From the UHGV virus genome UHGV-0224761: a stretch of 41,003 nucleotides of DNA. One strand, given 5' to 3'. How positions within the stretch are numbered: position 1 is the stretch's first letter; every line of letters starts with the position of its first letter. Shown here one piece after another: positions 13,774 to 40,631 of the stretch. This DNA comes from a virus. The notes under the pieces are model-generated. The model made no database searches and had not been told where the DNA came from. It saw only the letters and a list, made by a program, of their open reading frames with translations. The translations under genes were made by a program, and so were the position numbers.

Positions 13774-13783
13774 GAGGTGAATC

Positions 13784-21444: not shown

Positions 21445-21451
21445 ACGGTGA

Positions 21452-21470
21452 GCCGGGCTTACGGCCCGGC
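21452..21470 (+). promoter_or_regulatory. GC-rich hairpin after the major head gene
   Basis: gccgggc-ttacg-gcccggc, a 7-bp perfect stem without a T-run. Confidence 0.5.
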
Positions 21471-21487
21471 CCCTGCGGAGGGCAAAT

Positions 21488-22817: not shown

Positions 22818-22820
22818 CAG

Positions 22821-23108
22821 ATGACAACCATTTTTATCAAACCCGCGCCGGGATGCCTGATCCGCGATCCGGACACCATGAAACCGCTGGCGCAGGAGGG
22901 AGAGGAAAAACCCTTCACCCCGTTCTGGTGCCGCCGTCTTAATGACGGGGACGTCATTGTGGTGGAAAAAGCGGCTGAAGCAGCACCGGCAGCAGCGTCT
23001 GCAACGACTGATGCCGCCGGAAAACCCGCGGGAGCGGCAGCAGAAAAACCTGCGACTGAAAAAACCGCGACTGAAAAACCCGCAGCATCAGACAAGGGGA
23101 CGTCCTGA
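22821..23108 (+). CDS. Small protein with Ala/Thr/Glu/Lys-rich repetitive C-terminus (gp38 position)
   Basis: C-terminal ...AAEKPATEKTATEKPAASDKG... encoded by short direct DNA repeats. Confidence 0.45.
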   Translation: MTTIFIKPAPGCLIRDPDTMKPLAQEGEEKPFTPFWCRRLNDGDVIVVEKAAEAAPAAASATTDAAGKPAGAAAEKPATEKTATEKPAASDKGTS

Positions 23109-24610: not shown

Positions 24611-24618
24611 GGTAAGGC

Positions 24619-24984
24619 ATGAGCGGAAAACAGCATCAGGGCACGGCCACCATCCGTGTGAACGGACAGGAGTACGCCACCCTTGAGGGAGCCACGTTCT
24701 CCCCGTCCGGCTTTGAGCGTGAAGTGGTGAAAGGCGCGAAAGTCTATGGCTATCGTGAGAAACCCCGTGAGGCGACGCTGGACTGTAAATTTCCGGCTGG
24801 CGGAGAAGGTTCACCGGCTGCCGATGAAATCAACACCTGGACTGCGGTCACGATTGAGTTCGTGGCCGATACCGGTGAAGTCCATATGATGACGAAGGCC
24901 TGGAGCAGTGAACCGGCCTCGCTTGACGGTGGCGGTGATATCTCCGCGAAGTTCGCCAGCGCCACCAGTACCCGTGTCCAGTAA
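24619..24984 (+). CDS. M: Tail tube protein (Mu M-like)
   Basis: 121 aa, immediately after the sheath gene. Confidence 0.65.
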   Translation: MSGKQHQGTATIRVNGQEYATLEGATFSPSGFEREVVKGAKVYGYREKPREATLDCKFPAGGEGSPAADEINTWTAVTIEFVADTGEVHMMTKAWSSEPASLDGGGDISAKFASATSTRVQ

Positions 24985-24998
24985 TCAGGAAAAATGCA

Positions 24999-25478
24999 AT
25001 GACCACACGTAAGAAAAAAACGGCGGTTTCTGACGAGGCCGTGATGGAGGCTATCCGGGATGTACTTGAAGACGGCGATCCCCGCACCGCCGGGCTGGCT
25101 GAACAGCTGGCGAACGGCTATGTGGATCTGCTCGACGGTCTGCCGTTCGGGGAATCCCGTGAATACCGCGTCACCTTCCGCGAACTGACGGCGAAAGACA
25201 GCATTGACGCGGAAACCGAGGCCGAGCGTCTTATGGAAACCCGAAATGGCGGCCCGGTTCTGATAGCCTCGCCGGCACTGCGCGGCATTGCACTGCTGCG
25301 CCGTCAGATTGCCGCTGTTGGCCAGATTGAGGGGCCATTGTCTCCGCGTCAGATCGGACAGCTCAGCGAGCGCGATCTCTCCCGTCTGATGGCGGCGGTA
25401 AGCCTGCTTGATTCCGCGATGGCCGGAAAGCTGGTCGTTGAACGGGGGCGACCAGATGCAGTGCCGGGATCAGATTGA
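24999..25478 (+). CDS. Putative tail assembly chaperone
   Basis: 159-aa ORF between tube and tape measure; its 3' end overlaps a +1-frame ORF. Confidence 0.5.
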   Translation: MTTRKKKTAVSDEAVMEAIRDVLEDGDPRTAGLAEQLANGYVDLLDGLPFGESREYRVTFRELTAKDSIDAETEAERLMETRNGGPVLIASPALRGIALLRRQIAAVGQIEGPLSPRQIGQLSERDLSRLMAAVSLLDSAMAGKLVVERGRPDAVPGSD

Positions 25479-25602
25479 AGAAGCCGCAATTGTGCTGGGG
25501 ATGGTGACAAAAAGCGGCCCGGAGTGGGCGCTTAACCTCCCCTTATCGCAGCTTTACCGGCACTGCCGACAGACCGAAAAAATTCTCAGAACGAAGCAGT
25601 AA
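25456..25602 (+). CDS. Small overlapping ORF before the tape measure gene (possible chaperone frameshift extension)
   Basis: +1-frame ORF overlapping the end of 24999..25478 and ending 4 nt before the tape measure start; has its own ATG with RBS gggggc. Confidence 0.35.
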   Translation: MQCRDQIEEAAIVLGMVTKSGPEWALNLPLSQLYRHCRQTEKILRTKQ

Positions 25603-25605
25603 CCC

Positions 25606-27663: not shown

Positions 27664-29008
27664 CACGCCGGGGCGTGGCTCCTTTCGTGGTGTACCGTTC
27701 CTGGTTTATCAGGAGCAGCGGGAACGGGGCGGACGTAACATTGTGCGCCGTGAATACCCACTGCGTGAAAGCGGCGGTGCGGATGATCTGGGGCCAAAAC
27801 TCCCGGAGTTCACATTCACGGTTCTGGTGACCGGAGACGATCTTCAGACACAGCGAAGCCGCCTGCGTGATGCGCTGCGTGCACCCGGTGCCGGTGAACT
27901 GATGCACCCGGATTACGGCACGTTAAACGTGCTGATAAACAGCTTTGAAAGCCGTTATAACGCCAGCGAGCAGGGAACGGTTGAGTTCACGATCAACGTG
28001 ATCCCCGCCAGTGACGATACCGCCCCTGCGGTGGCAGAAGATACGGCAGCTGCGCTGGAGCAGAAAAGCGGCTCAGCAATGAATCAGCTGTTTAACACGC
28101 TTTCAGACGGCTGGACGGTGATTTCAGACGGTCTGCATGATGTACAGGCCATGACCGACACCATCAGCGATAAGATTGATGCACTGGAGAATGCCGTTTC
28201 GGGGATGGGGATTGTGCAGGATATCAGTGCCTTTACGGCCAGTTTTACTGCCCTGAAAGGCAATGCCGCCGCCCTGATTAATGCGCCCCGTCGCATGGCT
28301 GAATCGCTGGCCGGAATGTTTGCCGTGCTGACCGGGCTGCCCGGCGATCCTTCCCTGTCTCTGACCGGAAAAGCCGGAACGCCGTCCGGCAGCCTGACCA
28401 CAAACCGTGACAGCATGGCAGAGCAGGCCATGCCGCAGCTGTACCGCACACTTTCCTCCCTGCGTTACACCCTCAGCGAACAGGATGATCCACAGCGCCT
28501 GATTGGCCTGACGCCTGCGGCACAGAAAAATATCCGTCTGCTGCGGAGCGTGATGCAGAGTGCAACCCTGGTGTCGCAGGCACAGACGCTCGGAAAACTG
28601 CTGGATCAGGTCATCCGGCAGAATACGACGCACGTTCAGGATACTGACCGTTCGGGCGGACTGGCCTGGCTGGAAAGTTCTGCTGATGTGCAGCGTATCA
28701 ACCGGGATTTGAGCGATGCCATGGAACAACAGGTGCTGGATCTGTCCGCACAGGGCTATACCGGGACTGCCCTTGCATTACGTGATGCAGGGCTTGCGCT
28801 GACAGAAGATTTAACCACACGGAGCGTGCATCTTCCCGGTGCTTTTCAGGTCATGGTTCGCACCACCGAACCGGCACTGGTCACGCTGTACCGTGCCACC
28901 GGCAACAGCAGTCGCTGGCAGTATTTTGTCCGCAGAAACAATATCCCCGATCCGGTTTTTGTTCCGGGTGGCCGCAGCGTGGAGGTGATCAGTGAGCAGC
29001 AGGATTGA
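27650..29008 (+). CDS. N: Mu N-like DNA circularisation protein
   Basis: 452 aa; N-terminal ...FRGVPFLV... ; directly after the tape measure gene. Confidence 0.65.
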   Translation: MASTDTPGRGSFRGVPFLVYQEQRERGGRNIVRREYPLRESGGADDLGPKLPEFTFTVLVTGDDLQTQRSRLRDALRAPGAGELMHPDYGTLNVLINSFESRYNASEQGTVEFTINVIPASDDTAPAVAEDTAAALEQKSGSAMNQLFNTLSDGWTVISDGLHDVQAMTDTISDKIDALENAVSGMGIVQDISAFTASFTALKGNAAALINAPRRMAESLAGMFAVLTGLPGDPSLSLTGKAGTPSGSLTTNRDSMAEQAMPQLYRTLSSLRYTLSEQDDPQRLIGLTPAAQKNIRLLRSVMQSATLVSQAQTLGKLLDQVIRQNTTHVQDTDRSGGLAWLESSADVQRINRDLSDAMEQQVLDLSAQGYTGTALALRDAGLALTEDLTTRSVHLPGAFQVMVRTTEPALVTLYRATGNSSRWQYFVRRNNIPDPVFVPGGRSVEVISEQQD

Positions 29009-30116
29009 ACTGTATATCGGTGGCAGTATTTTTTCCGGCTGGCTGACGGTCAGCGTCCGTCGCTCGCTGGAGCATCTGGCCGGGTCGTTTGAACTGGGGC
29101 TGATGCTGCCCGGTGAGCGCATCCCCTCAGCCCTGCGAACCGGTCAGTCCCTGACGCTCAGAATTAACGGGCAGACGGTCATCAGTGGCTGGCTGGATCA
29201 GGTCAGTCAGCGGATCAGTGCAACCCGTCATCAGATCAGCATCAGCGGTCGGGATAAAACCGGCGACCTGGTGGACTGTGCCGCCATCCATCCCGGCAGC
29301 CAGTGGCGCAACCGGACGCTGGCACAGATTGCCGCAGATTTATGTGCGCCCTTCGGGATAGCCGTGCGCTGGCAGGTTAACGACGACACGGCTGCACGCC
29401 CCTTCAGCTCTTTTACGCTGGAAAACTCAGAAACCGTGGCGGATGCGCTGACCCGTGCTGCCCGGCATCGCGGGGTGCTGGTGACCAGTAATGCTGACGG
29501 CGATCTGGTGTTCACCCAGGCAGGAAGCCAGCAGACGGACAGACTGGTGCTGGGAGATAACCTGCTTGATGCCGATTACAACACGGACTGGCGAGGACGA
29601 TACAGCGAATACCGTGTCCGGGGACACGGGCGCGGTGGTGGCAAACGGGGAGACAGCGAATCCGCCGCCCGTCTGGCAGCACCTGTGGGCGTCATCAGTG
29701 ATGAGCAGATCGGCCGCTACCGGCCGAAAATCATCCTCGCCGATCAACAGACAGACACCACCGGTGCACGGCAGCGTGCCCTGCGTGAAATGCGCCGTGC
29801 GATTGCCCGTTCAGAACGGTTTTCTGCCACCGTGCGTGGCTGGTTCCGGGATGATGGTCGGTTATGGGATGTCAATCTGCTGACCGGTGTTTCAGCCCTG
29901 CGTTTCGGTATAGAACAGACTGAACTGCTGGTCTGTCAGGTGGAGTTTTTACTTGATGAACATAACGGGGAAGTCACCCGGCTGGTACTGGCACCGCGTG
30001 ACGGCTTTATCGTTCCGGCAGAGCCGGACAGTAAGGGCCGGGGTGGTTCCGGTGACGATGTTGATGCCTTTATTCGCCAGCAGATGAAAAAACAGGGGAT
30101 CAGCTTTGATGAATGA
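28992..30116 (+). CDS. P: Mu P-like tail/baseplate hub protein
   Basis: 374 aa; position and size. Confidence 0.6.
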   Translation: MSSRIELYIGGSIFSGWLTVSVRRSLEHLAGSFELGLMLPGERIPSALRTGQSLTLRINGQTVISGWLDQVSQRISATRHQISISGRDKTGDLVDCAAIHPGSQWRNRTLAQIAADLCAPFGIAVRWQVNDDTAARPFSSFTLENSETVADALTRAARHRGVLVTSNADGDLVFTQAGSQQTDRLVLGDNLLDADYNTDWRGRYSEYRVRGHGRGGGKRGDSESAARLAAPVGVISDEQIGRYRPKIILADQQTDTTGARQRALREMRRAIARSERFSATVRGWFRDDGRLWDVNLLTGVSALRFGIEQTELLVCQVEFLLDEHNGEVTRLVLAPRDGFIVPAEPDSKGRGGSGDDVDAFIRQQMKKQGISFDE

Positions 30117-30720
30117 TGAAGTGTTCAGCCGCCTGATTGCCCCGGTAACGCGCGGTATTCGCCTGTTGTTTGGCCGGGGCGTTCTGACCGGCACACATGA
30201 CGAACTGAAAATGCAGAATGTGCAGCTCACCGGCATGGACGGCGAAACCTTTGATGATGTGGAGCGTCCCCAGCAGTACGGGCAGATCAGCGTTCCCCTG
30301 CCGGGTGCGGAAACCTTTTTTGCCTGTCTGGGCGGACAGCGGGATCAGACTGTGGTGCTTGTGGTGGAAGACCGGCGCAGCCGCCCGACCGGACTCACAG
30401 CCGGAGATACGGGGGTGTATCACCATGAGGGGCACCGGATACGGTTAACAAAGGATGGTCGCATTATTGTGACATGCAAAATGCTGGAGATTTACGCCGA
30501 TGAGGGGATGCGGGTGGATACGCCGGAGGCCACCTTTACGGGCAATGTGACGGTGGATAAGAACCTGCATGTTAAGGGTAATTTCGCGCTTGAGGGCACG
30601 GGGAAATCTCAGGGACTGTTCACAATGTCGGATGCCGTTATTGCAGGGATACGGTATTCCGGCCATGTGCATCATGATAACGGCGAAGGCAGTAAGACAG
30701 GAGTGCCGGAGAATGGCTGA
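30106..30720 (+). CDS. Q: Mu Q-like baseplate spike protein
   Basis: 204 aa; position. Confidence 0.55.
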   Translation: MMNDEVFSRLIAPVTRGIRLLFGRGVLTGTHDELKMQNVQLTGMDGETFDDVERPQQYGQISVPLPGAETFFACLGGQRDQTVVLVVEDRRSRPTGLTAGDTGVYHHEGHRIRLTKDGRIIVTCKMLEIYADEGMRVDTPEATFTGNVTVDKNLHVKGNFALEGTGKSQGLFTMSDAVIAGIRYSGHVHHDNGEGSKTGVPENG

Positions 30721-31150
30721 TATTGCAATTGTGTGGGATCAGGGATGCGGTTCGCTGCAACTGAACGGTGCCGACCTGCTGACGGATGACAGTCTGCTGA
30801 CGGCCGTTCTGATTTCGCTGTTTACTGACCGCCGGGCGCTGGCATCGGATGAAATCCCTGACGGTACGCGTGACCGCCGGGGATGGTGGGGAGACAGTTT
30901 TCGCCCGCGTCCCATTGGCTCCCGTCTGTGGCTTCTCCGCCGGGAAAAAACGCTGGCCTCCGTGATAAGCCGTGCCCGTGCCTATGCGGATGAGGCGCTG
31001 GGCTGGCTCAGTCAGGATGGCGTGGCGTCATCCGTGGTCTGTCATGCAGAACGTGTGGGGCACGCGCGGCTGGCGCTTTCGGTGCGCATAACCCTGCCTG
31101 ATGGTTCAGTGAGGCCCATGATTTTTTATGCTGATCTTAAGGGGGAGTAA
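30713..31150 (+). CDS. V: Mu gp46/V-like baseplate protein
   Basis: Internal ATG (MADIAIVWDQG...) overlapping the Q stop as ATGGCTGA; about 145 aa. Confidence 0.55.
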   Translation: MADIAIVWDQGCGSLQLNGADLLTDDSLLTAVLISLFTDRRALASDEIPDGTRDRRGWWGDSFRPRPIGSRLWLLRREKTLASVISRARAYADEALGWLSQDGVASSVVCHAERVGHARLALSVRITLPDGSVRPMIFYADLKGE

Positions 31151-32232
31151 TGCCTTATCAGCCTTTACCGCTGGCACAGTTAATCACGCAGACACAGCAG
31201 GATATCAGCCAGCGCCTGCCCGGCTCGCAGCCGGGTGTGAATGAAACCACCCTGAATGCCATTGCTTACGCTCAGGCAGGGTTATCTGCTCAGGAGCATG
31301 AGCATCTGGCCTGGATTGCGCGTCAGATCATCCCGACCGAAGCCGATGAAGCCGAACTGCTGAAACACTGTGCATTCTGGGGCGTCATGCGTAAGCCTGC
31401 CTCTCGGGGGGACGGGCCGGTTCAGCTGATGCTGACCACGGATGCGGGGATCAAGGAAGGTGTGCTTCTCCAGCGAAGTGATGGCGTGGTTTACCGTATC
31501 ACCACCTCCCTGACCGGTAAGGCCGGTACGCTGAATGTCAGTGTGGAAGCCGAAAGTGCCGGTCGTGCGGGGAATGCCCCGGCAGGGACAAAACTGACAT
31601 TTATCACACCGCAGGCGGGGATCAACCAGACGGCCACGGTGACCGGAACGGGGATCACCGGTGGTGCGGATGTGGAAACCGTGCCGGAGCTGCTTTCCCG
31701 TCTGGTTTTCCGGGTGCAGAATCCACCGTCCGGCGGCACGCAGTATGATTTTGAACGCTGGGCGCGTGAAGTGCCGGGCGTGACGCGGGCATGGTGCCGC
31801 CCGGAATGGCCGCAGGCGGGCAGCGTGGGGGTAACGTTTGTTCAGGATAATAACCCGGATATTTTCCCCGGTGACGGTGATGTTCAGCGGGTGGCGGATT
31901 ATATCCGCAGTCATGATGATCCGGCGACCGGCCAGCCTGTCGGACAGCCTCTGGGGCCGACGGTGACCGTGTTTAAACTGACCAATAAGCCGGTGCCCTT
32001 CAGCATCAGGATCATCCCGAAAACACCGGAGAATCAGGCGGCCGTAAAACAGGCGCTGACCGACCTGTTGTATAACGAATCCCGGCCCGGCGGTCTGGTT
32101 CTGCCGTCGTCTTTCTGGCGGGCGGTGGCAGGGGTGAAAAATCTGGAGGATTTTGAAGTGCGCAGTCCGCTGACGTCAGTTCAGGCGGGAGACAGTGAGC
32201 TGCTGACGGTAGGAGAAATCACATGGCTGTAA
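31150..32232 (+). CDS. W: Baseplate J-like protein (Mu W-like)
   Basis: 360 aa; position. Confidence 0.65.
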   Translation: MPYQPLPLAQLITQTQQDISQRLPGSQPGVNETTLNAIAYAQAGLSAQEHEHLAWIARQIIPTEADEAELLKHCAFWGVMRKPASRGDGPVQLMLTTDAGIKEGVLLQRSDGVVYRITTSLTGKAGTLNVSVEAESAGRAGNAPAGTKLTFITPQAGINQTATVTGTGITGGADVETVPELLSRLVFRVQNPPSGGTQYDFERWAREVPGVTRAWCRPEWPQAGSVGVTFVQDNNPDIFPGDGDVQRVADYIRSHDDPATGQPVGQPLGPTVTVFKLTNKPVPFSIRIIPKTPENQAAVKQALTDLLYNESRPGGLVLPSSFWRAVAGVKNLEDFEVRSPLTSVQAGDSELLTVGEITWL

Positions 32233-32783
32233 CCCTGACCCCGCATCAGCGCGCCCTGTTGCAGTTACTGCCTGACGGGCTGGCATGGGACAAGCGTCCG
32301 TCATCCGTACTGGCATCATTATGTCTGGGCCTCAGTCATTCGACAGCGCGTGTATCCTGGACGGGTAAACAGCTGCTTGCCGAGCGTTTCCCTGACACGT
32401 CGCGCCTGCTGCTGGAAGACTGGGAGCGTTATCTCGGGCTTCCCGAGTGTGATATGGCCGGAGCCACCCTCACGGAGCGACAGCGTTATGCCGGAAATAA
32501 ATACCGGATGAAGCCCTCGCTGAACCGTGAATTTTATATCCGGTTTGCGGCGGAGTTTGGTTATCAGATTGACATTCAGCCCTCACCGGATTCGCAGTGG
32601 GTCAGTATTGTCACGATTAACAGTGAAACCGGCTACCGGAATATGAATGTGCTGGATGATATTCTCACGCCGCTGCGTATTTATGAAGGCGGTGCGCTGG
32701 AATGTATTCTGAACCGTTATAAGCCTGCATGGCAGACGTTTATTTACGTTTATGCAAACAGCCATGAAGAGGAGACTATTTAA
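32223..32783 (+). CDS. R: Mu R/gp48-like tail protein
   Basis: 186 aa; position immediately before the tail fibre gene. Confidence 0.55.
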
Positions 32784-33673
32784 TGTTTCATGTTGATAAT
32801 AATTCCGGCGTGGCGAATATGCCTGCGCTGGCACCGGCGCAGAGTAATACCACCACCTGGTTTACCGAAGGTGACGGACAAAAAGGTATCAGCTGGATTG
32901 GTCAGGACTGGCTGAATATTCTCCAGGCCGAACTGCTGAATATTCTGGCTGAAGCCAGTATTCAGCCGGATAAGGCGCAGTTAAACCAGCTTACGCTGTC
33001 CATTAAAGCCATTATCGCTGCGAATGCCTTTTCCCGGAAAAATAACCTGAAAGAAATTGCTGATGCCGGTGCGGAGGCCCAGCGTCTGGCCCGTGGTTAT
33101 CTTGGTCTGGGGACGCTTGCCACAAAAAACAGTCTTGGTCCCGCTGACGTTAATGCCCTGGCGAAGGATCAGAATCTCGCCGACCTGGAGAATAAGGGAA
33201 CCGCCCGTAATAATCTGGATGTTTACAGCAAAAGCGAAGGTGATAACCGTTACCTGCGCAGGGAGCAGAACGGCGCAGACATTCCGGATAAAGGGGCTTT
33301 TATCGATAACGTCGGTTTACGGGAAACGGTAAACAGGGCGGCGAATGCTCTGCCATCGGACGGCACCGCCGTTGCCGCGAATAGACTCGCCACCCCAAGA
33401 AATATTAATGGGGTTCCCTTTGACGGGACGCAGGACATAAACATCACTTCTGGTATAACACAGCAGGATGCGGATTCCCGATATATCCAGGATATCAGGC
33501 TGGGAGCAGAGAACAGGCAGGTAATGTACGGTGGGGCATATTACTCTGCGTACGGTAATGTTATGGCAGGCCTGCAGATTGACAGTAAAGTTGATGCTTC
33601 AAACGATTTTATAGCATTCAGACCCCTGCAAAAATTAGTCGGAGGTACATGGATTACGGTATCTCAGTTATAA
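32783..33673 (+). CDS. S: Tail fibre protein S: constant part fused to the variable part Sv in the present orientation
   Basis: 296 aa; the gix crossover site lies at about codon 177; the C-terminus ...[18 protein letters not shown] is paralogous to the alternative Sv' tip. Confidence 0.7.
33300..33325. promoter_or_regulatory. gix-like recombination site, left (TTATCGATAACG-TC-GGTTTACGGGAA)
   Basis: 26-bp site with dyad symmetry matching the Gin/Hin crossover-site pattern; an inverted copy lies at 34617..34642. Confidence 0.7.
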
Positions 33674-33724
33674 ATAGTCAGTAAATAATATATTTTAAAA
33701 CAGATTTATTTCCAGGAGGATTTT

Positions 33725-34246
33725 ATGGAACTAAAAAATATAACCCGTTATTATCCTGAAAATATGCCATATGGTAATAATGTTCAGTATTTCCAGAGTG
33801 AAGATGGTAAGGATTTCTACGAATCCCTGCCATTATTCACCAAAAAATATAAACTTTGCATAACACCTGACAGCGGCGTTATCTGCTCAATATCACAGGA
33901 CGCCTCGGCGCTGTATCCTGCGGGGTTTTCTGTGGTTGAGGTCGATGAACTCCCTGAAGGCACGGATATTTCAGGAAACTGGAAGTTTGATAATGGCATA
34001 ATCTCCCGTATTCCGGTTAACTACGCAAGAAAACTGGAAGCAATGCGCCAGTCATATCTTAATCAGGCATATGAAAAAATTAATGACTGGAGAACGGAGC
34101 TACAACTGGGCACCATCAGCGATGAAGACAGAGCAGCACTTACCCAATGGATGGCATACATCAGTCAGGTGAAGAAAATGGAACTACCCGCCATTAAAAC
34201 AGAAGCTGAATTTAACGCCATTAAATGGCCTGAGCAGCCACAGTAA
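33725..34246 (+). CDS. U: Tail fibre assembly protein (U-like)
   Basis: 173-aa ORF immediately after S with RBS aggagg. Confidence 0.6.
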   Translation: MELKNITRYYPENMPYGNNVQYFQSEDGKDFYESLPLFTKKYKLCITPDSGVICSISQDASALYPAGFSVVEVDELPEGTDISGNWKFDNGIISRIPVNYARKLEAMRQSYLNQAYEKINDWRTELQLGTISDEDRAALTQWMAYISQVKKMELPAIKTEAEFNAIKWPEQPQ

Positions 34247-34250
34247 TAAA

Positions 34251-34268
34251 GAAGGCCGGAAGGCCTTC
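34251..34268. terminator. Hairpin between convergent U and Sv'
   Basis: gaaggcc-ggaa-ggccttc, a 7-bp perfect stem, flanked by A/T-rich sequence. Confidence 0.5.
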
Positions 34269-34277
34269 TGAATATCA

Positions 34278-34628
34278 TTATATACTTGCAGCCGTCACCC
34301 ATGCTCCATTTAACAGATACTGCAACGGCCGGTAATACACGCCGCCGACGTTATCTGCCGTATTCTTACCGACATCCTGTACTTTAATTCCGGTAAGAAC
34401 ATTGCCGCCCCCCAGATTCAGATCCCAGCTTTCCCATGTTCCGGGCATATGTGCGGTCACCGACCCCAGTCTTATGGCGGTTACTGTTCCTGATGAGATA
34501 GTGATATCCTGCGTCCCGTCAAAGGGAACACCATTAATTGTGTGGGCATTTGCCAGCCTGTTCGCGGCAACGGCGGTGCCGTCCGATGGCAGGGCATTCG
34601 CCGCCCTGTTTACCGTTTCCCGTAAACC
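34278..34628 (-). CDS. Alternative tail fibre variable part Sv' (no own start; expressed after inversion as an Sc-Sv' fusion)
   Basis: Minus-strand frame open from the gix site to the stop at 34278, reading ...[41 protein letters not shown]...YYRPLQYLLNGAWVTAASI, collinear with Sv. Confidence 0.6.
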   Translation of the reverse strand, partial: GLRETVNRAANALPSDGTAVAANRLANAHTINGVPFDGTQDITISSGTVTAIRLGSVTAHMPGTWESWDLNLGGGNVLTGIKVQDVGKNTADNVGGVYYRPLQYLLNGAWVTAASI

Positions 34629-34642
34629 GAGGTTTTCAGGAA
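34617..34642. promoter_or_regulatory. gix-like recombination site, right (TTCCCGTAAACC-GA-GGTTTTCAGGAA)
   Basis: Close match to the Gin crossover-site pattern; inverted relative to 33300..33325. Confidence 0.7.
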
Positions 34643-34707
34643 AGCCAGGATTAACTCTGTTTTATTCCTCATGCGACAATTCCGGCTTTTTATAATAAGG
34701 AAATCGT

Positions 34708-35280
34708 ATGCTGATTGGGTATATCAGGGTGTCAACAAATGACCAGAATACGGCGCTACAAAGAAATGCGCTGGAATGTGCAGGATGTGAGCTGTTTTTC
34801 GAAGACAGAATAAGCGGTAAGACAAGGGAGCGTCCCGGACTTAAACGCGCATTAAAGCGACTCCGGCCAGGGGATACCCTGCTGGTCTGGAAACTGGATC
34901 GCCTTGGACGCAGTATGCAGCACCTTGTCCTTTTAACAGAAGAACTCCGGCAACGCGGCGTTAACTTCCGCAGCATTACGGACAATATTGATACATCCAC
35001 TCCCATGGGACGTTTCTTTTTCCATATAATGGGCGCGCTGGCGGAAATGGAGCGGGAACTCATTATTGAACGTACACGCGCGGGTCTTGCTGCTGCCCGT
35101 GCTCAGGGGCGTCATGGCGGCAGACCTCAGAAACTGACAGAGAAAGAGCGGGAGCAAATCGCCCGTTTGCTGGCTAATGGCGAGTCCCGTAAACAAATCG
35201 CACTGATATTTGATATTGGCCTTTCCACCCTTTATCGTTATTTTCCTGCCTCACCAGCTCCGTCACCAAAAGTACCGTGA
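34708..35280 (+). CDS. gin: Gin/Hin-family serine DNA invertase
   Basis: 190 aa; MLIGYIRVSTNDQ... with the catalytic serine in the RVST motif and a C-terminal HTH (...GESRKQIALIFDIGLSTLYRY...). Confidence 0.95.
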   Translation: MLIGYIRVSTNDQNTALQRNALECAGCELFFEDRISGKTRERPGLKRALKRLRPGDTLLVWKLDRLGRSMQHLVLLTEELRQRGVNFRSITDNIDTSTPMGRFFFHIMGALAEMERELIIERTRAGLAAARAQGRHGGRPQKLTEKEREQIARLLANGESRKQIALIFDIGLSTLYRYFPASPAPSPKVP

Positions 35281-35365
35281 CACTTTTTTGAATTTCCGCA
35301 AAACACATATTTTTCAGCGGTCGCTATTCTGACTCTGTTTAATTCAGAAACAGGCAGAAAAGACG

Positions 35366-37420
35366 ATGTCAGACTCCAAGTGGAAAATGCTCTCCGCCAT
35401 GCCCGGAGAGTTTTCAGTCAAGGTTGCCGGTGGCACGGTGGCATTTATTGAAAGCCCTTTCCGCCCTTCGGGTAATAAAGGGGGGATCACCTTCGCAGAC
35501 TGCGTGATCCGCTTCAGCACGAAAGAGCCATTATGGGTAATGCCGGTATCCGGTAATCCCAGTGCAGAAATCACCAGTTCAGGCGTGACTGGCATCATTC
35601 CAATCACATCTGACGTGGCCGGAACGCTCACGCCCTCCGACTGGAATGCACCGGATAACGCCGGGCCTTCCGGTAGCACGAATGGCAGCAGTTCAGAGCC
35701 GGAATATTACTTTGTTGTCATTCTCGCGGGTCAGTCAAATGGCATGGCCTACGGCGAGGGGCTGCCGTTACCGGATTCGTTTGACCGCCCGGACCCACGC
35801 ATTAAGCAACTGGCACGCCGCAGTACGGTAACGCCCAACGGTACGTCGTGTACATACAACGACATCATTCCGGCAGACCACTGCCTGCATGATGTTCAGG
35901 ATATGAGCGGGATAAACCACCCGAAAGCTGATCTGGCAAAAGGCCAGTACGGGACTGTCGGTCAGGGGTTGCATATTGCCAAAAAACTGCTTCCCTATAT
36001 CCCACAGAATGCCGGGATACTTCTGGTGCCCTGTTGTCGTGGCGGGTCAGCATTCACCACTGGAGCCGACGGCTCATTCAGTGAGGCCAGCGGTGCTTCC
36101 GCTGATTCTTCACGCTGGGGGGCCGGTAAACCTCTGTATCAGGACCTGGTAAGCCGCACCAAAGTCGCGCTGGCGAAAAACCCGAAAAACAAACTTCTGG
36201 CTGTGGTCTGGATGCAGGGAGAGGCAGACCTTGCCTCAGGAAGCCAGCAGCATAATAGTTTATTCACGGCCATGGTTCAGCAGTTCAGAACTGACCTGGC
36301 TCCGCTTGCTGCGCAGTGCGTGAGTGGAAATGCCACCACGGTGCCGTGGATTTGCGGTGATACCACGTATTACTGGAAAAACGCTGGCACCGATAAATAT
36401 GAGGCAGTATACGGTGGCTACAAAGGCAAGGAAGCACAGAAAATTTTCTTTGTACCGTTCCTGACGGATGAGAATGGACAGAGCACGCCAACGAATGCTC
36501 CGGCGGAAGACCCGGATATTGTGGCTGTCGGGTATTACGGTGCAGCATCCCGAACCCAGGGCAGTTTTGTTTCGACACAGCGTGACAGCCATTTCAGCTC
36601 ATGGGCACGCAGGGGCGTCATTTCAGACCGTCTGGCCTCAGCTATTATGCTCCATGCAGGGCGCACGGCTGAACTGATGCGCGGGCAGACCGTGACACCA
36701 CCGGATGAGAAGCCGTCACCTGATACACCATCAAAACCGTCCACGCCACCCGCAGACACCACGACGATGAGTACGCTATTTGCTTACCGGGCATCTGAGT
36801 CTGAAGGACGGTTGACACCACAGGGTTGGGCTGCCGGAGGTGGCAAGGCTCAAATCGTGGATGATGCCGGAGCCAGCGGGGGTAAGGCAATGAAACTGAC
36901 CAAGGAAACAGGAAGAGCCCCCTGGTACCTTGAGCATGATGCTGGTAATGGTGCGGACCTGCTGGGTAAAGGTGGTCTTGTCAGTTGTCGTTTTAAACTC
37001 GATGGCGCGCTTACGGCTAATCAGTACGCACTGGCGCTGTACTGGCCGGTTTCTGCCCTGCCGCAAGGGGTTACTCTGGAAGGAAATGCCGGTCATAACC
37101 TGCTGGCATCGTTCTACGTACAGAGCGATGCCACAGACCTTAACGTGATGTATCACAAAGGAAACACGGCGCAGAACACGAAGCTGGGGTCATTCGGCGC
37201 ATTTAATAACGAATGGCATACGCTGGGCTTCCGTTTTGCCGGTAACAACAGTATTGAGGTGACGCCGGTCATTGATGGTAAGGACGGGACACCATTCATG
37301 CTGTCGCAGTCTCCGGTCGGCACGTTTACGGCAGACAAGTTGCGCGTGACCGATATCACTAAAAATGCGACTTACCCGGTACTGATTGACAGTATCGTGG
37401 TGGAAGTGAATAACGCGTAA
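35366..37420 (+). CDS. SGNH-hydrolase / sialate-O-acetylesterase-like protein (NanS-p-like) with a long C-terminal domain; prophage cargo
   Basis: 684 aa; SGNH block I ...VVILAGQSNGMAYGEG...; paralogous to the host gene fragments at both prophage junctions. Confidence 0.7.
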   Translation: MSDSKWKMLSAMPGEFSVKVAGGTVAFIESPFRPSGNKGGITFADCVIRFSTKEPLWVMPVSGNPSAEITSSGVTGIIPITSDVAGTLTPSDWNAPDNAGPSGSTNGSSSEPEYYFVVILAGQSNGMAYGEGLPLPDSFDRPDPRIKQLARRSTVTPNGTSCTYNDIIPADHCLHDVQDMSGINHPKADLAKGQYGTVGQGLHIAKKLLPYIPQNAGILLVPCCRGGSAFTTGADGSFSEASGASADSSRWGAGKPLYQDLVSRTKVALAKNPKNKLLAVVWMQGEADLASGSQQHNSLFTAMVQQFRTDLAPLAAQCVSGNATTVPWICGDTTYYWKNAGTDKYEAVYGGYKGKEAQKIFFVPFLTDENGQSTPTNAPAEDPDIVAVGYYGAASRTQGSFVSTQRDSHFSSWARRGVISDRLASAIMLHAGRTAELMRGQTVTPPDEKPSPDTPSKPSTPPADTTTMSTLFAYRASESEGRLTPQGWAAGGGKAQIVDDAGASGGKAMKLTKETGRAPWYLEHDAGNGADLLGKGGLVSCRFKLDGALTANQYALALYWPVSALPQGVTLEGNAGHNLLASFYVQSDATDLNVMYHKGNTAQNTKLGSFGAFNNEWHTLGFRFAGNNSIEVTPVIDGKDGTPFMLSQSPVGTFTADKLRVTDITKNATYPVLIDSIVVEVNNA

Positions 37421-37428
37421 GCAGGATA

Positions 37429-37467
37429 AAAAAATGCCGCCGGTAAGGGAAAACAAGAAACCGGCGG
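37429..37467. terminator. Hairpin after the esterase gene (T-run on the minus strand)
   Basis: 9-bp stem gccgccggt...accggcggc preceded by an A7 run on the plus strand, which is a T-run on the minus strand. Confidence 0.45.
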
Positions 37468-37552
37468 CAAAAAGATCGTTATATCCAAAGCAAAAAATGC
37501 AGTGCACCTTTTTACCTAACAGATATTACCGGTGTCAACACCATGTCAATAA

Positions 37553-37747
37553 TTGGGAGGGATAATGACATTTTTACAGCTTATTTTATTGTATTTCTGC
37601 ACGGCAGTATGTGCGTTATATCTGGTGAGTGGTGGTTATAAGGCCATCAGAAATTATGTTCGCCGCAAAATTGAGGACGCAGCAGCTGAAAAACTCAGTA
37701 AAACAGCGCAGGTAACTCCGCTCCCAAAAGACCCGACCCAGCCCTGA
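37553..37747 (+). CDS. Small single-pass membrane protein (cargo)
   Basis: 64 aa; N-terminal hydrophobic helix FLQLILLYFCTAVCALYLV; strong RBS gggaggg. Confidence 0.5.
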   Translation: MGGIMTFLQLILLYFCTAVCALYLVSGGYKAIRNYVRRKIEDAAAEKLSKTAQVTPLPKDPTQP

Positions 37748-37782
37748 TTGCAGGGCTTTATTCCCGCATAAGGAGGATATAC

Positions 37783-38037
37783 ATGCCAGAAATTAAAGGC
37801 ACCGTCACTGAAGACCTGGTAAAACAGGCACTGTATTCCGGTGAAGTAAATAAGTTGCTGAAAGCGCAGGTCCGCAAGGATTTTGAGGCACAAATCGACA
37901 CTTACGTTGATGAAGTGCTGGCAAAACTTATTGGGCCAGCAGTTGCGGCCAGTGATGCTGATAATGAGCCGAAAACCGACGCGCAGCCAGAGCAACCAGA
38001 CCCGGCTCAGCCCGGAACTGACAGTACCATGATGTAA
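37783..38037 (+). CDS. Small acidic protein with a disordered Pro/Asp/Glu-rich tail (cargo)
   Basis: 84 aa; strong RBS aggagg. Confidence 0.5.
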   Translation: MPEIKGTVTEDLVKQALYSGEVNKLLKAQVRKDFEAQIDTYVDEVLAKLIGPAVAASDADNEPKTDAQPEQPDPAQPGTDSTMM

Positions 38038-38204
38038 CAATACAAACCGGTGGTGTCCTCTGCCGGTTTGACACTAATGAAAACATCTTTGCCGCTATCC
38101 AGCCATATGTAATCGCTGGATAGTATTTCGTATTCAGAAATATAGCTGCTTATGGAGCAGTCAATCCTGCTTCCCCATCCGGGCAGGCAAATGAACCGGT
38201 ATCA

Positions 38205-38498
38205 TTAGTCCGATTCACGCTTTTGTAGAATCGTTCCCAGAATGCTATACAGCTCATTAGCCTGTTGCTCCATCATTGAGACGGAGGCTATACGGTGCAA
38301 AGTGATTTCAGGAGGTGGCACACCTCCATCTTCTTGCTGTGGAGGAAAAACATAAGATTTAATAAAAAAGTTGAAGCATATGAACTCTCCCGCACTCGAA
38401 CTGTATTTGCAGGCATCTGAATAATCGGAAAAATAATCATTATAGATTTCCGCATTTTCAATCATTTTTCGATTTCTCGTCGTTACATGATTGTCCAT
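38205..38498 (-). CDS. Hypothetical protein in an AT-rich island (cargo, reverse orientation)
   Basis: 97-aa ORF on the minus strand; the surrounding 38040..38710 region is AT-rich compared with the rest of the prophage. Confidence 0.45.
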   Translation of the reverse strand: MDNHVTTRNRKMIENAEIYNDYFSDYSDACKYSSSAGEFICFNFFIKSYVFPPQQEDGGVPPPEITLHRIASVSMMEQQANELYSILGTILQKRESD

Positions 38499-38686
38499 AG
38501 CAGCCTCTTACGCTGGCAATTAACCAATTGACTTCTATAAATTAGTTGATTTGTTTGCTTTGCGGTATTCAAATGTACAATCATTCAGCACTTATGCGTT
38601 ACAGCACCGTTTAAAATTAGTGATCAAACTCATAAATTTTCGCTAATGACATTTCGTGTTATTTGTTGTATCAATTAAATAAATCA

Positions 38687-38711
38687 AATCGATCGTTTTT
38701 GTCGATCGATT
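38687..38711. promoter_or_regulatory. Perfect palindrome AATCGATCG-N7-CGATCGATT with two GATC sites upstream of com
   Basis: 9-bp inverted repeat with GATC at 38691..38694 and 38705..38708. Confidence 0.5.
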
Positions 38712-38754
38712 GAGTGATAAAGATATCAACAACAAAGCAGGAGGTTATGCGGCC

Positions 38755-38955
38755 ATGTATCGAAACATACGGTGCCGACATTGTAACAAGCTACTGGCAC
38801 GAGCCAGCTTCAGTTATCTGGAAGTTAAATGTCCGCGCTGTAAAACCCTCAATCAAATCACATCTCAGAGCGCCACAGAGCACCCCACATACACAAGGAA
38901 ATCCTGTCGTGGGGAACAGAAAGCAAGTTACATCCCGTATCATCAGCACGCCTGA
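38755..38955 (+). CDS. com: Com zinc-finger translational activator of mom
   Basis: ...[30 protein letters not shown]...EHPT parallels the Mu Com Cys4 zinc finger; the track ORF begins upstream at 38710 with a non-ATG start. Confidence 0.8.
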
Positions 38956-39646
38956 ACTTATTCACTATAACGACAATATCGTCGGTTATGGCTCCCGTGA
39001 GTTACGGGTTGAGACAATAAGTTGCTGGCTGGCCCGGCTGGTCGTCGTCAATAAACATTACAGCCATCGTTTCGTAAATAATTCCTACCTTCATCTGGGC
39101 ATATTTTCAGAACGGGAGCTGGTTGGCGTAATGCAATGGGGTTATGCCCTTAATCCAAACAATGGTGCACGCGTCGTAACTGGCACGCAGAACCGCGAAT
39201 ATATGGAGCTTAACCGGTTATGGCTGCATGACTGTATGCCGAGAAACTCCGAATCAAGGGCAATCAGTTACGCGCTCAAACTAATCAGACAACTTTATCC
39301 GCAGGTGCAGTGGGTTCAGTCGTTTGCAGATGAGCGTTGTGGCTGTCTTGGTGTCGTGTACCAGGCAAGCAATTTTGATTATGTAGGCAGTCATGAAACA
39401 ACATTCTATGAACTTGATGGCGAGTGGTATCACGAGATTTGCAAGAATGCAATCAAACGAGGAGGACAGCGAGGTGAACATCTGCGGGCTAATATCGACA
39501 GAGCCAGTGTTCATAAATTCCGTCAGTTTCGTTACATCCGGTTTCTGGACAAGAGAGCCAGAAAACGCCTTAACACAAAGCTATTCAAAGTCCAGCCTTA
39601 CCCAAAACCACAAACAGTTAAAACTGGTTTGAAAGAGAGTGAATGA
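38909..39646 (+). CDS. mom: Mom-like DNA modification protein
   Basis: Start overlaps the 3' end of com and it is the last gene before the right end, as in Mu; GTG start after RBS aagga lying inside a palindrome aggaaatcct. Start is approximate (the track ORF extends upstream to 38714). Confidence 0.55.
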
Positions 39647-39689
39647 ACGCTTAAAAACTCATTCTAAAACTCAAAAGAAAAGCGCCGAT

Positions 39690-39773
39690 TTAGTATCAAA
39701 TAAGTTGCGTATCGGCGTTTTTCAGCGGTATCAAATGAAATGCAAATCGGTATCAAAAAAATCGCCGCGCTAT
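39690..39773 (+). repeat. Right end (attR) with three inverted transposase-binding repeats
   Basis: Reverse complements of TTTGATACCGA at 39748..39758, TTTGATACCGC at 39725..39735 and TTTGATACT at 39692..39700; the terminus ...CGCCGCGCTAT resembles the Mu right end. Confidence 0.6.
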
Positions 39774-39778
39774 ATAAT
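39774..39778. repeat. Right copy of the putative 5-bp target-site duplication (ATAAT)
   Basis: Pairs with GTAAT at 556..560. Confidence 0.55.
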
Positions 39779-40631
39779 ACGTCGTGTCACCACAAATCCA
39801 CGGCACATTTACAGCACTGCCACCATGACACTGCGCGTTAAACACAGTGAGGTCAGCACGAAACTGCTTCAGCATGGCTGTAAACAGCGCAGGTTGCTGT
39901 GCGTAGGTGGCGGCGCTCATGTCAAACTCTCCCTGCATCCAGCACACCGCCAGCAACACATTTTTCGGGTTCTTCTGTAATGCAGCTTTAGTGCGCGCAA
40001 TCAGGTCCTGATATAACGGTTTACCCACCCCCCAGCGCGCCGAATCCTGGCTGGCCCCCGCGTCCGCACTGAATGTCCCCTCCGCGCCCCGGGTGAATGC
40101 CGAACCACCACGACAGCATGGTACCAGCAGGATCCCCGCGTTATTCGGGATATACGGGAGCAGTTTTTTGGCAATATGTAAGCCCTGGCCGACACAGCCG
40201 TACTGCCCTTTGCTCAGGTCTGCCTTCGGATGATTCAGCGTACTCATATCCTGCACATCATGCAGACAGTGGTCAGCCGGGATGATGTCGTTATACGTAC
40301 AACTCTCTCCACCCGGAGTTACCGTGCTGCGGCGCGCCAGCTGTTTAATGCGCGGATCCGGAGCATCGTAAGAATCCGGTAACGGAAGCCCTTCACCGTA
40401 GGCCATGCCGTTGGACTGTCCGGCAAGCACAACCACGTAGAACCAGTCCGGCTCAGATGAAGGGCCGACCTGTGGATCTCCTTCAATAGCCACCGCCTGC
40501 ATCAGTGTGTACGGCGTAATGGCAACCGGTCCGCCATATGGCTGCCAGCCCTCTTTCAGTTTGTGTGTCAGCTTTTCCGCAAGGTCTGACGGCGACGCCG
40601 CCCTGACAACATCATAGTGTTTAAATGCCAT
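39779..40631 (-). pseudogene. 5' fragment of the host SGNH/sialate-O-acetylesterase-like gene cut by the prophage
   Basis: N-terminal about 285 aa ending ...VNVPWICGDTTYY; in the track ORF (39753..40631) the last six codons (IARRFF-stop) are read from prophage-end sequence; SGNH motif VVVLAGQSNGMAYGEG. Confidence 0.7.

What the first reader, a model, noticed from the sequence alone, without database searches (positions are those of the whole stretch)
35366..37420. The prophage carries its own paralogue of the esterase gene that it disrupted
The cargo gene between gin and com-mom encodes a 684-aa SGNH/sialate-O-acetylesterase-like protein whose catalytic core is highly similar to the interrupted host gene (for example LAGQSNGMAYGEGLPLPDS, RIKQLARRSTVTP, CTYNDIIPADHCLHDVQDMS and ILLVPCCRGGSAFT are conserved), while the N-terminal and C-terminal regions differ. 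Mu-type transposition does not need homology, so insertion into a paralogue of cargo it already carries is unexpected. Possible explanations are functional replacement of the disrupted gene, cargo acquired from a neighbouring NanS-p-type prophage gene, or the target being a hot region in another prophage.
Basis: partly seen in the sequence, partly recalled or inferred. Interest (0 to 1): 0.7.

Follow-up and report, generated by a model that had tools for sequence, protein, structure and literature searches.

The report
Mu-like prophage landed in esterase paralogue
A Mu-type transposable prophage that always carries its own sialic-acid esterase gene has, most likely by chance, jumped into a distantly related esterase gene of another prophage; the coincidence is real but ordinary, and the more interesting point is that the Mu-type esterase has a different front domain from the usual capsid-binding one.

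Summary
Window 561-39774 is an intact Mu-like prophage of the Sp18 family. It is inserted by clean transposition into a NanS-p-type esterase gene of a lambdoid prophage. Between gin and com/mom it carries its own 684-aa NanS-p-like esterase, which is 63% aa and about 70% nt identical to the target over 434 residues.

The suggestion that the coincidence means something is not supported.
- The esterase-DUF1378-DUF826 cassette is a standard part of this phage family, present in essentially all of about 232 complete E. coli genomes that hold the phage.
- The same phage with a 100% identical cassette sits at many unrelated sites (yghD, citF, ydcF, flgL and others).
- About 75 other insertion sites that I examined include no esterase gene.
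- Synonymous sites between cargo and target are near saturation, and the longest high-identity stretches are too diverged for homology-guided events.

Chance, helped by tolerance of insertions in dispensable prophage genes, explains the event.

Two points are worth keeping. About 2 kb of the cargo (catalytic domain, lectin domain and part of DUF1378) is 92% identical to a different lambdoid cassette, so the Mu-type gene exchanges with the lambdoid pool. Its N-terminal domain is specific to the Mu lineage and replaces DUF1737, which was recently shown to be the capsid-binding domain of NanS-p.

The parts
1..560 (-). 3' portion of the disrupted lambdoid-prophage NanS-p-type esterase gene. It encodes ...YWKNTYATQYDTVYGG... 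through the start of the C-terminal domain, and the gene runs off the window's left edge.
   Evidence: Translation. 99.5-99.7% identical to 'SASA family carbohydrate esterase' genes in many E. coli prophages. Aligns colinearly with the intact gene of strain 15A.
557..560 (.). Left copy of the apparent 4-bp target duplication, TAAT.
   Evidence: The intact site reads CCAGTAATACG, and TAAT is present on both sides of the prophage.
561..39774 (+). Mu-like (Sp18-family) transposable prophage of 39,214 bp. The left end reads TGTAACCAGG... and the right end ...CGCCGCGCTATA.
   Evidence: Matches to other genomes start and stop exactly at these positions. The gene content is annotated in the near-identical AST198 copy: repressor, Ner-like HTH protein, transposase, AAA ATPase, Gam, Mor, lysozyme, portal, sheath, tube, baseplate, Gin, Com, Mom. 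Colinear with that copy at 89-99.7% identity.
1962..4052 (+). MuA-type transposase (696 aa). The MuB-like AAA ATPase follows at 4126-5067.
   Evidence: ORF list. PGAP annotates 'transposase' and 'AAA family ATPase' at the colinear positions of L001.
33305..34637 (.). Invertible G-like tail-fibre segment bounded by 86-nt inverted repeats (33305-33390 and 34552-34637).
   Evidence: the repeat finder. The segment is in the opposite orientation in the AST198 copy.
34708..35280 (+). gin-type DNA invertase.
   Evidence: Pfam Resolvase 1.6e-51 plus HTH_7.
35366..37420 (+). Mu-family NanS-p-like esterase, 684 aa. It has a lineage-specific N-domain (aa 1 to about 82), a disordered linker ending in SSSEPE (aa about 83-113), a NanS-type SGNH/SASA catalytic domain (aa 110-428; GQSN at aa 122, DSHF at aa 407), a Pro/Ser/Thr linker, and a lectin-like DUF6645 domain (aa 469-683).
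35366..35698 (+). N-terminal domain and linker specific to the Mu-like lineage. It has no similarity to lambdoid genes and is 55-65% nt identical to Sp18.
   Evidence: Three-way sliding identity. No Pfam family. Among 1.84 billion representative proteins, the only relatives are fragments and one divergent Mu-like prophage protein. The domain is nearly invariant among Mu-type variants whose remaining sequence varies 83-94%.
35699..37693 (+). A 2-kb patch shared with the lambdoid NanS-p pool. It is 91.8% identical to the esterase-DUF1378 cassette of a lambdoid prophage in strain 2017.17.03CC, but only about 65-70% identical to Sp18.
   Evidence: blastn and sliding-window identities. Lambdoid context: antiterminator, tRNAs, esterase, DUF1378, DUF826, holin.
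37553..37747 (+). DUF1378 small membrane protein, part of the cassette.
   Evidence: Pfam DUF1378 1.2e-31; phrog_494.
37783..38037 (+). DUF826 protein, part of the cassette.
   Evidence: Pfam DUF826 6.4e-16; phrog_311.
38205..38498 (-). Hypothetical 97-aa ORF with no family match.
   Evidence: No Pfam or PHROG hit. PGAP annotates a hypothetical protein here in AST198.
38755..39646 (+). com (38755-38955) and mom (38909-39646).
   Evidence: Pfam Zn_ribbon_Com and Mom. Gene limits transferred from the PGAP annotation of L001.
39775..40631 (-). 5' portion of the disrupted NanS-p-type gene (DUF1737 plus most of the SASA domain). The open frame runs 7 codons into the Mu right end (..TTYY|IARRFF*), stopping at 39753. 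The first 4 bases, 39775-39778, are the right copy of TAAT.
   Evidence: ORF and translation. Pfam DUF1737 4.7e-16 and SASA. Alignment to the intact gene.

Best explanation
An Sp18-family Mu-like phage transposed, without regard to homology, into the NanS-p-type esterase gene of a resident lambdoid prophage. That gene sits in the late region between the Q/tRNA region and the holin. The insertion split it after codon 285 (..GDTTYY|WKN..) and separated the Ser-containing and His-containing parts of the SGNH active site, so the target enzyme is dead. The esterase on the Mu-like phage was not picked up in connection with this event. An esterase-DUF1378-DUF826 cassette downstream of gin is a fixed part of this phage family. 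It consists of a Mu-lineage N-terminal domain fused to a NanS-type catalytic domain and a lectin-like DUF6645 domain. The catalytic and lectin part is exchanged from time to time with lambdoid NanS-p genes by homologous recombination. That the target is a paralogue of the cassette is best explained by chance. NanS-p genes make up roughly 0.04-0.3% of a prophage-rich E. coli genome, many independent Mu-like insertions are on record, and insertions in dispensable multi-copy prophage genes survive. Shown: the element's boundaries, the clean junction, the paralogy and its age, the family-wide presence of the cassette, the many unrelated insertion sites, and the mosaic patch. Inferred: that the choice of target was random, and that the cassette enzyme is an active sialate O-acetylesterase.
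For: Clean junction: the flanks rejoin on an intact gene with a TAAT overlap, and the Mu ends are defined by where matches in other genomes stop. The same phage with a 100% identical cassette is at unrelated sites: yghD/gspM, and citF, ydcF, a diguanylate cyclase gene, flgL, a JAB-domain gene and a DUF6531 gene. This junction occurs in 0 of 5426 complete genomes, and no Mu end lies within about 900 bp of a homologous esterase segment in the same orientation. Thirty-six further right-end flanks from metagenomes, IMG/VR and annotated loci include none in an esterase gene; the one exception, L006, is this same junction. The cassette is family-wide: Sp18 ECs_4993-4995 is 66% aa identical over the full length, including the N-domain. 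The mom/right end is in 232 genomes, against the Sp18-type N-domain in 205 plus the window type in 27. A far more divergent Mu-like prophage has the same arrangement. The paralogues are old: 70% nt identity and about 50% third-position identity. The mosaic patch is shown. Catalytic and lectin domain identities are shown.
Against: The per-insertion probability of hitting an NanS-p gene is small (order 1e-3), so for any single lysogen the event is unlikely. My sample of about 75 other sites only bounds a target preference to below roughly 4%. The survey of the 283 places in complete genomes is indirect, because it covers one orientation and about 900 bp only. Enzyme activity and expression of the cassette were not tested.
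Confidence: 0.85

Rival explanations
1. Selective retention (functional replacement): insertions into an NanS-p gene are tolerated, or even favoured, in this phage family because the incoming phage brings an intact esterase that compensates for the lost one. Such lysogens would then be over-represented among survivors.
For: The cargo is full length, with the GQSN and DSHF motifs intact. The target is split between these motifs. Roughly one in six sampled Mu-like insertions lies in prophage genes, consistent with survival of insertions in dispensable DNA.
Against: NanS-p genes are usually multi-copy and not essential (median 2 and up to 11 places per genome matched, though that query also contained the Mu left end, so the count includes Mu-like prophage copies), so no compensation is needed. 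No second insertion in an esterase gene was found among about 75 other sites. The two enzymes have different lectin domains and different N-domains, so they are not obviously equivalent.
Confidence: 0.1
2. Target preference or hot region: the lambdoid late region around nanS-p is a preferred target for this transposase/MuB pair, for example because of composition or transcription state.
For: Mu-like prophages of this family are repeatedly found inside lambdoid or Stx prophages. Two GenBank Stx phage records annotate an inserted Mu-like phage. Flanking genes in other genomes include tail, terminase, portal and lysis genes.
Against: Those prophage hits are spread over many different genes, and none is the esterase. 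No other Mu end lies next to an esterase gene in 283 places (indirect test) or in 36 extra flanks. The share of insertions in prophage DNA (about 8 of 44) is not far from the prophage share of STEC genomes (16% in Sakai, PMC2669165).
Confidence: 0.04
3. Homology-driven event: the prophage arrived or was rearranged by recombination or gene conversion between its esterase gene and the resident one.
For: Two paralogues lie 2.4 kb apart in inverted orientation (35366-37420 + and 39775-40631 -). The cargo does show a recombination patch with another lambdoid allele.
Against: The junctions are at the Mu termini, not inside the cargo gene, and they restore an intact target with a short duplication. 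Cargo and target are only about 70% nt identical, at most 79% in 90-nt windows, with near-saturated synonymous sites.
Confidence: 0.01
4. Assembly artefact: the prophage was joined to the esterase gene by mis-assembly across the shared esterase sequence.
For: The same junction was found in only one other record, a 6.3-kb metagenome scaffold.
Against: The joins are at the exact phage termini on both sides, with a target duplication. They are not in the region of similarity, which at 70% identity would not mislead an assembler. An independent scaffold is 100% identical across the right junction.
Confidence: 0.01

Closest known systems
NanS-p of Stx and lambdoid phages (933W L0105; phi24B vb_24B_21 / gp84; C-terminal domain PDB 6YP6)
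   Same: NanS-type SGNH/SASA catalytic domain followed by a lectin-like jelly-roll DUF6645 domain, and followed by DUF1378 and DUF826 genes as in some lambdoid late regions. Up to 91.8% nt identity over 2 kb to a lambdoid allele.
   Different: The N-terminal DUF1737 domain is replaced by an unrelated domain of about 80 aa with a cupin-like beta structure, plus a linker. DUF1737 was shown to be the capsid-binding domain in phi24B (bioRxiv 10.64898/2026.04.10.717836). The gene sits downstream of gin in a Mu-like myovirus-type genome rather than between Q/stx and the lysis genes.
ECs_4993-ECs_4995 of prophage Sp18 (Mu-like) in E. coli O157:H7 Sakai
   Same: Same position (gin, esterase, DUF1378, DUF826, com/mom), same three-part architecture including the N-domain, and 66% aa identity over the full length.
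   Different: Only about 65-70% nt identity in the esterase, against 94.7% in com/mom. The window's allele has had its catalytic and lectin part replaced from the lambdoid pool.
Chromosomal NanS (YjhS) of E. coli, PDB 3PT5
   Same: The catalytic domain aligns over about 320 residues with E 1.8e-117, and the GQSN and SHF motifs are conserved.
   Different: NanS has a single domain. The cargo has additional N- and C-terminal domains and is phage-borne.
Bacteriophage Mu, D108 and SfMu
   Same: Transposable phage organisation: c, ner, A, B, late genes, invertible tail-fibre segment, gin, com, mom, and essentially random insertion sites.
   Different: In SfMu the gin-mom region amplifies as 1.5 kb (PMC4406740), so there is no room for the 3.4-kb cassette carried by the Sp18 family. 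The right terminus reads ..TATA and the visible duplication is 4 bp rather than 5.

Membership tests
NanS-p (prophage-borne sialate O-acetylesterase): cargo gene 35366-37420 | NanS-like SGNH/SASA catalytic domain with the nucleophile and His motifs conserved | tested here: met
   Pfam SASA 1.5e-13. PDB 3PT5 NanS E 1.8e-117 over aa 110-428, with GQSN (aa 122) and DSHF (aa 407) aligned to the NanS motifs. Which residues are catalytic rests on my knowledge of the NanS structure paper, not on a test here.
NanS-p (prophage-borne sialate O-acetylesterase): cargo gene 35366-37420 | C-terminal lectin-like jelly-roll carbohydrate-binding domain | tested here: met
   Pfam DUF6645 7.4e-68. PDB 6YP6 'NanS-p' E 7e-98 over aa 469-683.
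NanS-p (prophage-borne sialate O-acetylesterase): cargo gene 35366-37420 | N-terminal DUF1737 domain | tested here: not met
   No DUF1737 or any other Pfam hit in aa 1-113, even at E<=1. The AF2 model is an all-beta cupin-like barrel, whereas DUF1737 is a helix plus three strands.
NanS-p (prophage-borne sialate O-acetylesterase): cargo gene 35366-37420 | Location in a lambdoid late region, downstream of Q/stx and upstream of the lysis genes | tested here: not met
   It lies between gin and com/mom of a Mu-like prophage.
NanS-p (prophage-borne sialate O-acetylesterase): cargo gene 35366-37420 | Esterase activity on 5-N-acetyl-9-O-acetyl-neuraminic acid | not testable with these tools
   Needs an enzyme assay.
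NanS-p: interrupted host gene (1-560 plus 39775-40631) | DUF1737 + SASA + DUF6645 architecture in a lambdoid late region | tested here: met
   DUF1737 and SASA in the window fragment. The intact 99.5%-identical orthologue has DUF1737, SASA and a divergent DUF6645 (E 3e-19), and lies between the tRNAs/antiterminator and the holin.
Mu-like transposable phage (Sp18 family) | Transposase A, ATPase B, repressor/Ner, Mor, Gam, gin with an invertible segment, com/mom | tested here: met
   ORFs. Pfam for gin, Com and Mom. PGAP annotation of the colinear AST198 copy. Inverted repeats. 94.7% identity to Sp18 in com/mom.
Mu-like transposable phage (Sp18 family) | Insertion by transposition: fixed termini, short target duplication, many unrelated sites | tested here: met
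   Termini are constant across genomes. A TAAT duplication and an intact empty site. More than 70 different flanks. The duplication appears to be 4 bp rather than Mu's 5 bp.
Site-specific or homology-targeted insertion into NanS-p genes | Recurrent use of the same target gene by independent insertions | tested here: not met
   0 of 5426 complete genomes share the junction. None of about 75 other flanks is an esterase gene.
Virion decoration protein of the gp84 (phi24B NanS-p) type | N-terminal domain that binds the capsid, with the enzyme displayed on the virion | not testable with these tools
   Only indirect evidence. The N-domain is lineage-specific and conserved while the enzyme part is exchanged, and a disordered linker ending in SSSEPE precedes the catalytic domain. 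Needs virion proteomics or cryo-EM.

The most novel reading that the evidence does not exclude
The Mu-family esterase may not be lysogenic-conversion cargo. It may be a modular virion-displayed enzyme. In this reading the conserved, lineage-specific N-terminal beta-barrel domain is the Mu-type counterpart of DUF1737, that is, the anchor that docks the protein on the Mu-like capsid or tail. The esterase-plus-lectin module is then a shared cassette that is swapped by recombination between unrelated phage types (lambdoid and Mu-like), with the break point at the inter-domain linker. The window would document an 'anchor swap' for a mucus-glycan-modifying decoration protein.
Probability: 0.35. Interest if true: 0.55.

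Novelty: new variant of a known kind. Interest (0 to 1): 0.3.

Why it matters
The headline coincidence, a prophage inserted in a paralogue of its own gene, does not point to a new mechanism and should not be followed up as one. The work does show that a widespread family of E. coli Mu-like prophages, present in about 4% of complete genomes, carries a NanS-p-type sialate O-acetylesterase cassette as a fixed component. This adds to the count of such esterases in EHEC and other E. coli, which matters for studies of growth on mucin-derived Neu5,9Ac2 that count only lambdoid copies. It also shows that the enzyme module moves between lambdoid and Mu-like phages, while the N-terminal domain stays lineage-specific. 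Given the recent finding that DUF1737 anchors NanS-p to the phi24B capsid, this gives a testable prediction about how different phages display the same enzyme.

Tried and rejected
1. Recent gene conversion between cargo and target: rejected. Identity is 70% nt, at most 79% per 90-nt window, and third-position identity is about 50%.
2. Cargo captured from the neighbouring target gene: rejected. The nearest lambdoid relative is a different allele with a different downstream gene set, and the cassette is family-wide.
3. Looking for the same junction elsewhere: none in 5426 complete E. coli genomes, and one 6.3-kb ENA metagenome scaffold that is 100% identical.
5. The afdb50 fold library was not available.
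6. The promoter and terminator scan around the cassette found nothing above shuffled expectation, so the transcription unit is unresolved.
7. Literature: no paper in the searchable library links NanS-p with Mu-like phages or mentions ECs4993 or DUF6645.
8. ARAGORN found no tRNA in the window.
Full report
WHAT IS IN THE WINDOW

The window holds one complete Mu-like prophage, 561-39774 (39,214 bp), flanked by the two halves of a single host gene. I set the phage limits from where matches in other genomes begin and end. Left-end matches start at window 561 (TGTAACCAGG...), and right-end matches stop at 39774 (...CGCCGCGCTATA).

The gene order is that of Mu. A repressor lies on the minus strand (917-1528). 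It is followed by a Ner-like protein, a 696-aa transposase (1962-4052), a MuB-like ATPase (4126-5067), early genes, Mor, lysis genes, head and contractile-tail genes, and an invertible tail-fibre segment bounded by 86-nt inverted repeats (33305-33390 and 34552-34637). Then come gin (34708-35280), the cassette discussed here, and com and mom. RefSeq's annotation of a colinear copy in E. coli AST198, which is 89-99.7% identical, agrees with this. The com/mom end is 94.7% identical to prophage Sp18 of O157:H7 Sakai. Sp18 is a known, apparently intact and packaged Mu-like prophage (PMC2669165), and its relatives sit at strain-specific sites (PMC7430833).

THE INTERRUPTED GENE

On the minus strand, 39775-40631 encodes the first 285 residues of a protein with DUF1737 and SASA domains. 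The open frame then runs 7 codons into the phage end (..GDTTYY|IARRFF*). Also on the minus strand, 1-560 continues the same protein from ..WKNTYATQYDTVYGG.. and runs off the window.

Both flanks align end to end with an intact 617-aa 'SASA family carbohydrate esterase' gene of E. coli O111:H21 strain 15A. They overlap only by TAAT, and the empty site reads CCAGTAATACG. In strain 15A the gene lies in a lambdoid prophage between the antiterminator/tRNA region and the holin. It has DUF1737, SASA and a divergent DUF6645 domain, and it matches NanS (3PT5) and the NanS-p C-terminal domain (6YP6). The target is therefore an ordinary NanS-p-type gene of a lambdoid prophage, and it was hit by a clean transposition.

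THE CARGO

ORF 35366-37420 encodes 684 aa.
- Residues 110-428 match E. coli NanS (PDB 3PT5, E 1.8e-117). The GQSN (aa 122) and DSHF (aa 407) motifs are aligned.
- Residues 469-683 match the lectin-like C-terminal domain of phage NanS-p (PDB 6YP6, E 7e-98; Pfam DUF6645).
- Residues 1-113 match no Pfam or PHROG family.

Downstream lie a DUF1378 gene (37553-37747), a DUF826 gene (37783-38037) and an unassigned minus-strand ORF (38205-38498). The order esterase, DUF1378, DUF826 is the order found in some lambdoid late regions just before the holin.

CHECK OF THE OBSERVATION

Cargo against the reconstructed target gives 546 bits and 273/434 identical residues (63%), from just before the catalytic domain into the start of the C-terminal domain.

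HOW OLD IS THE PARALOGY?

A codon-aware alignment gives about 70% nucleotide identity, with a maximum of 79% in any 90-nt window. Third-position identity is only about 50% in codons that encode identical residues. These are long-diverged paralogues. The alignment shows no sign of recent conversion and no tract that could guide homologous recombination. The junctions are also at the phage termini, not inside the cargo gene.

IS THE CARGO SPECIAL TO THIS PROPHAGE?

It is not.
- Sp18 has the same cassette (ECs_4993-4995). Its esterase is 66% aa identical over the full length, including the N-terminal domain.
- In 5426 complete E. coli genomes, the family's mom/right end occurs in 232 genomes (283 places).
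- The Sp18-type N-domain DNA occurs in 205 genomes (246 places), and the window-type cassette at 80% coverage or more occurs in 27. Essentially every member of the family therefore carries it.
- A much more divergent Mu-like prophage, with an N-domain 30% identical, has the same fusion downstream of its invertase.
- In SfMu, by contrast, the gin-mom region amplifies as only 1.5 kb.

WHERE DOES THE FAMILY INSERT?

The same phage with a 100% identical cassette lies in yghD/gspM (AST198). It also lies next to citF, ydcF, a diguanylate cyclase gene, flgL, a JAB-domain gene and a DUF6531 gene. Across the family, the listed rows show about 44 different flanking genes. About 8 of these are prophage genes (tail tip, tail fibre, minor tail L, lysis, two terminase genes, portal, head completion), and none is an esterase.

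No place in any complete genome covers more than 52% of either junction query. This means no genome shares the junction, and no Mu end lies within about 900 bp of a homologous esterase segment in the same orientation.

I then pulled every exact match to the 26-nt right terminus from the metagenome and IMG/VR collections and compared the flanks with four esterase proteins. Of 36 usable flanks only one matched, L006. L006 is the same junction, 100% identical to the window over 4165 bp.

With NanS-p genes making up roughly 0.04-0.3% of a genome (my estimate, from 1-7 copies of about 1.9 kb in about 5.2 Mb), and with hundreds to thousands of independent insertions in public data, an occasional hit is expected. 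My sample only bounds any preference to below about 4%.

THE MOSAIC

I made a three-way comparison of the window, Sp18 and the closest lambdoid cassette (strain 2017.17.03CC; Q, tRNAs, esterase, DUF1378, DUF826, holin). It shows three segments.
- 35366-35698 (N-domain and linker) resembles only Sp18, at 55-65% nt identity.
- 35699-37693 (catalytic domain, lectin domain, intergenic spacer and two-thirds of DUF1378) is 91.8% identical to the lambdoid cassette, with 97-100% stretches, but only about 65-70% identical to Sp18.
- 37694-38100 (rest of DUF1378 and DUF826) is again closer to Sp18, at 80-85%.

The left break falls at codon 112, in the SSSEPE linker just before the catalytic domain. In line with this, the N-domain is almost invariant among Mu-type variants whose remaining sequence differs by 6-17%. 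The enzyme part of the Mu-family gene therefore exchanges with the lambdoid NanS-p pool. The donor is not the gene that was hit here.

THE N-TERMINAL DOMAIN

A 2026 preprint reports that phi24B NanS-p (gp84) is a capsid decoration protein. It identifies the N-terminal DUF1737 domain as the capsid-binding part, and reports that the protein is processed at linkers containing SSP-like motifs (bioRxiv 10.64898/2026.04.10.717836). This makes it reasonable, though unproven, that the Mu-family N-domain is the equivalent anchor for a different virion.

HOW IT MOST LIKELY WORKS

The disrupted target is inactive, because its Ser motif and His motif are now 39 kb apart. The Mu-borne gene is intact and should encode an active sialate O-acetylesterase with a carbohydrate-binding module. 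This rests on strong homology to characterised enzymes, not on an assay.

The scan found no promoter or terminator signal above background around the cassette. Whether it is read through from gin in lysogens or from a late promoter is therefore open.

The insertion also puts 39 kb between the lambdoid late promoter region and its lysis and morphogenesis genes. This may cripple that prophage, but I could not test it.

VERDICT

The event is best read as a chance Mu-type insertion, made possible by the tolerance of insertions in dispensable prophage genes. The lasting points are that the Sp18 family always carries an NanS-p-type cassette, that the cassette's enzyme module recombines with lambdoid alleles, and that the cassette has a lineage-specific N-terminal domain in place of DUF1737.

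Noticed in passing
window 557-560 and 39775-39778; L001 (AST198) both ends; L003 8511-8514: The target duplication made by this Mu-like family appears to be 4 bp, not the 5 bp of Mu. It is TAAT here, with the empty site reading CCAGTAATACG. It is CGGG in AST198, and the depositors of LC727895 also annotate a 4-bp duplication. The right terminus ends in ...TATA rather than ...CA, and its last A is constant in all genomes.
   Followed up: partly
window 33305-34637: The invertible tail-fibre (G-like) segment is bounded by 86-nt inverted repeats that are 93% complementary. It is in the opposite orientation in the otherwise colinear AST198 prophage, so Gin-mediated switching seems to be active in the family.
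   Followed up: partly
window 22389-33438 versus L001: The tail and baseplate region is only about 89-90% identical to the AST198 copy, while the early region is about 97% and the gin-to-right-end part 99.7%. Several short stretches (about 8705-9382, 9596-10163, 20162-22389, 26798-28430) have no match. The family is mosaic well beyond the esterase cassette.
   Followed up: no
window 39753-39774 (minus strand): The truncated target ORF reads through the junction into the phage right end and gains 7 foreign codons (IARRFF, then stop). The result is a 292-aa DUF1737-SASA fragment that gene callers report as a separate protein. The same 292-aa product is on record in one ENA metagenome scaffold.
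   Followed up: yes
window 38205-38498 (minus strand): A 97-aa ORF between DUF826 and com has no Pfam or PHROG match. Sp18 has a different, longer minus-strand ORF (ECs_4996, 154 aa) at the same place.
   Followed up: no
L007 (GCA_037428405.1 contig ABQUQB010000040.1) 4792-6461: A much more divergent Mu-like prophage has an invertase, two small ORFs, and then an esterase with a homologous N-domain (30% identity) fused to the same AGQSN catalytic start. The N-domain-esterase fusion is therefore old and not confined to the Sp18 family.
   Followed up: partly
L003 / LC727895.1 and LC727881.1: Two deposited 'Stx-converting phage' genomes of about 93 kb each contain a whole Sp18-family Mu-like phage inserted within them. 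Mu-like insertions inside lambdoid prophages recur and inflate the apparent size of Stx phage genomes.
   Followed up: no
L001 20632-20711 versus window: RefSeq annotates a 'tRNA-OTHER' inside the AST198 copy of the prophage, between the virion morphogenesis and minor head genes. ARAGORN finds no tRNA anywhere in the window.
   Followed up: no
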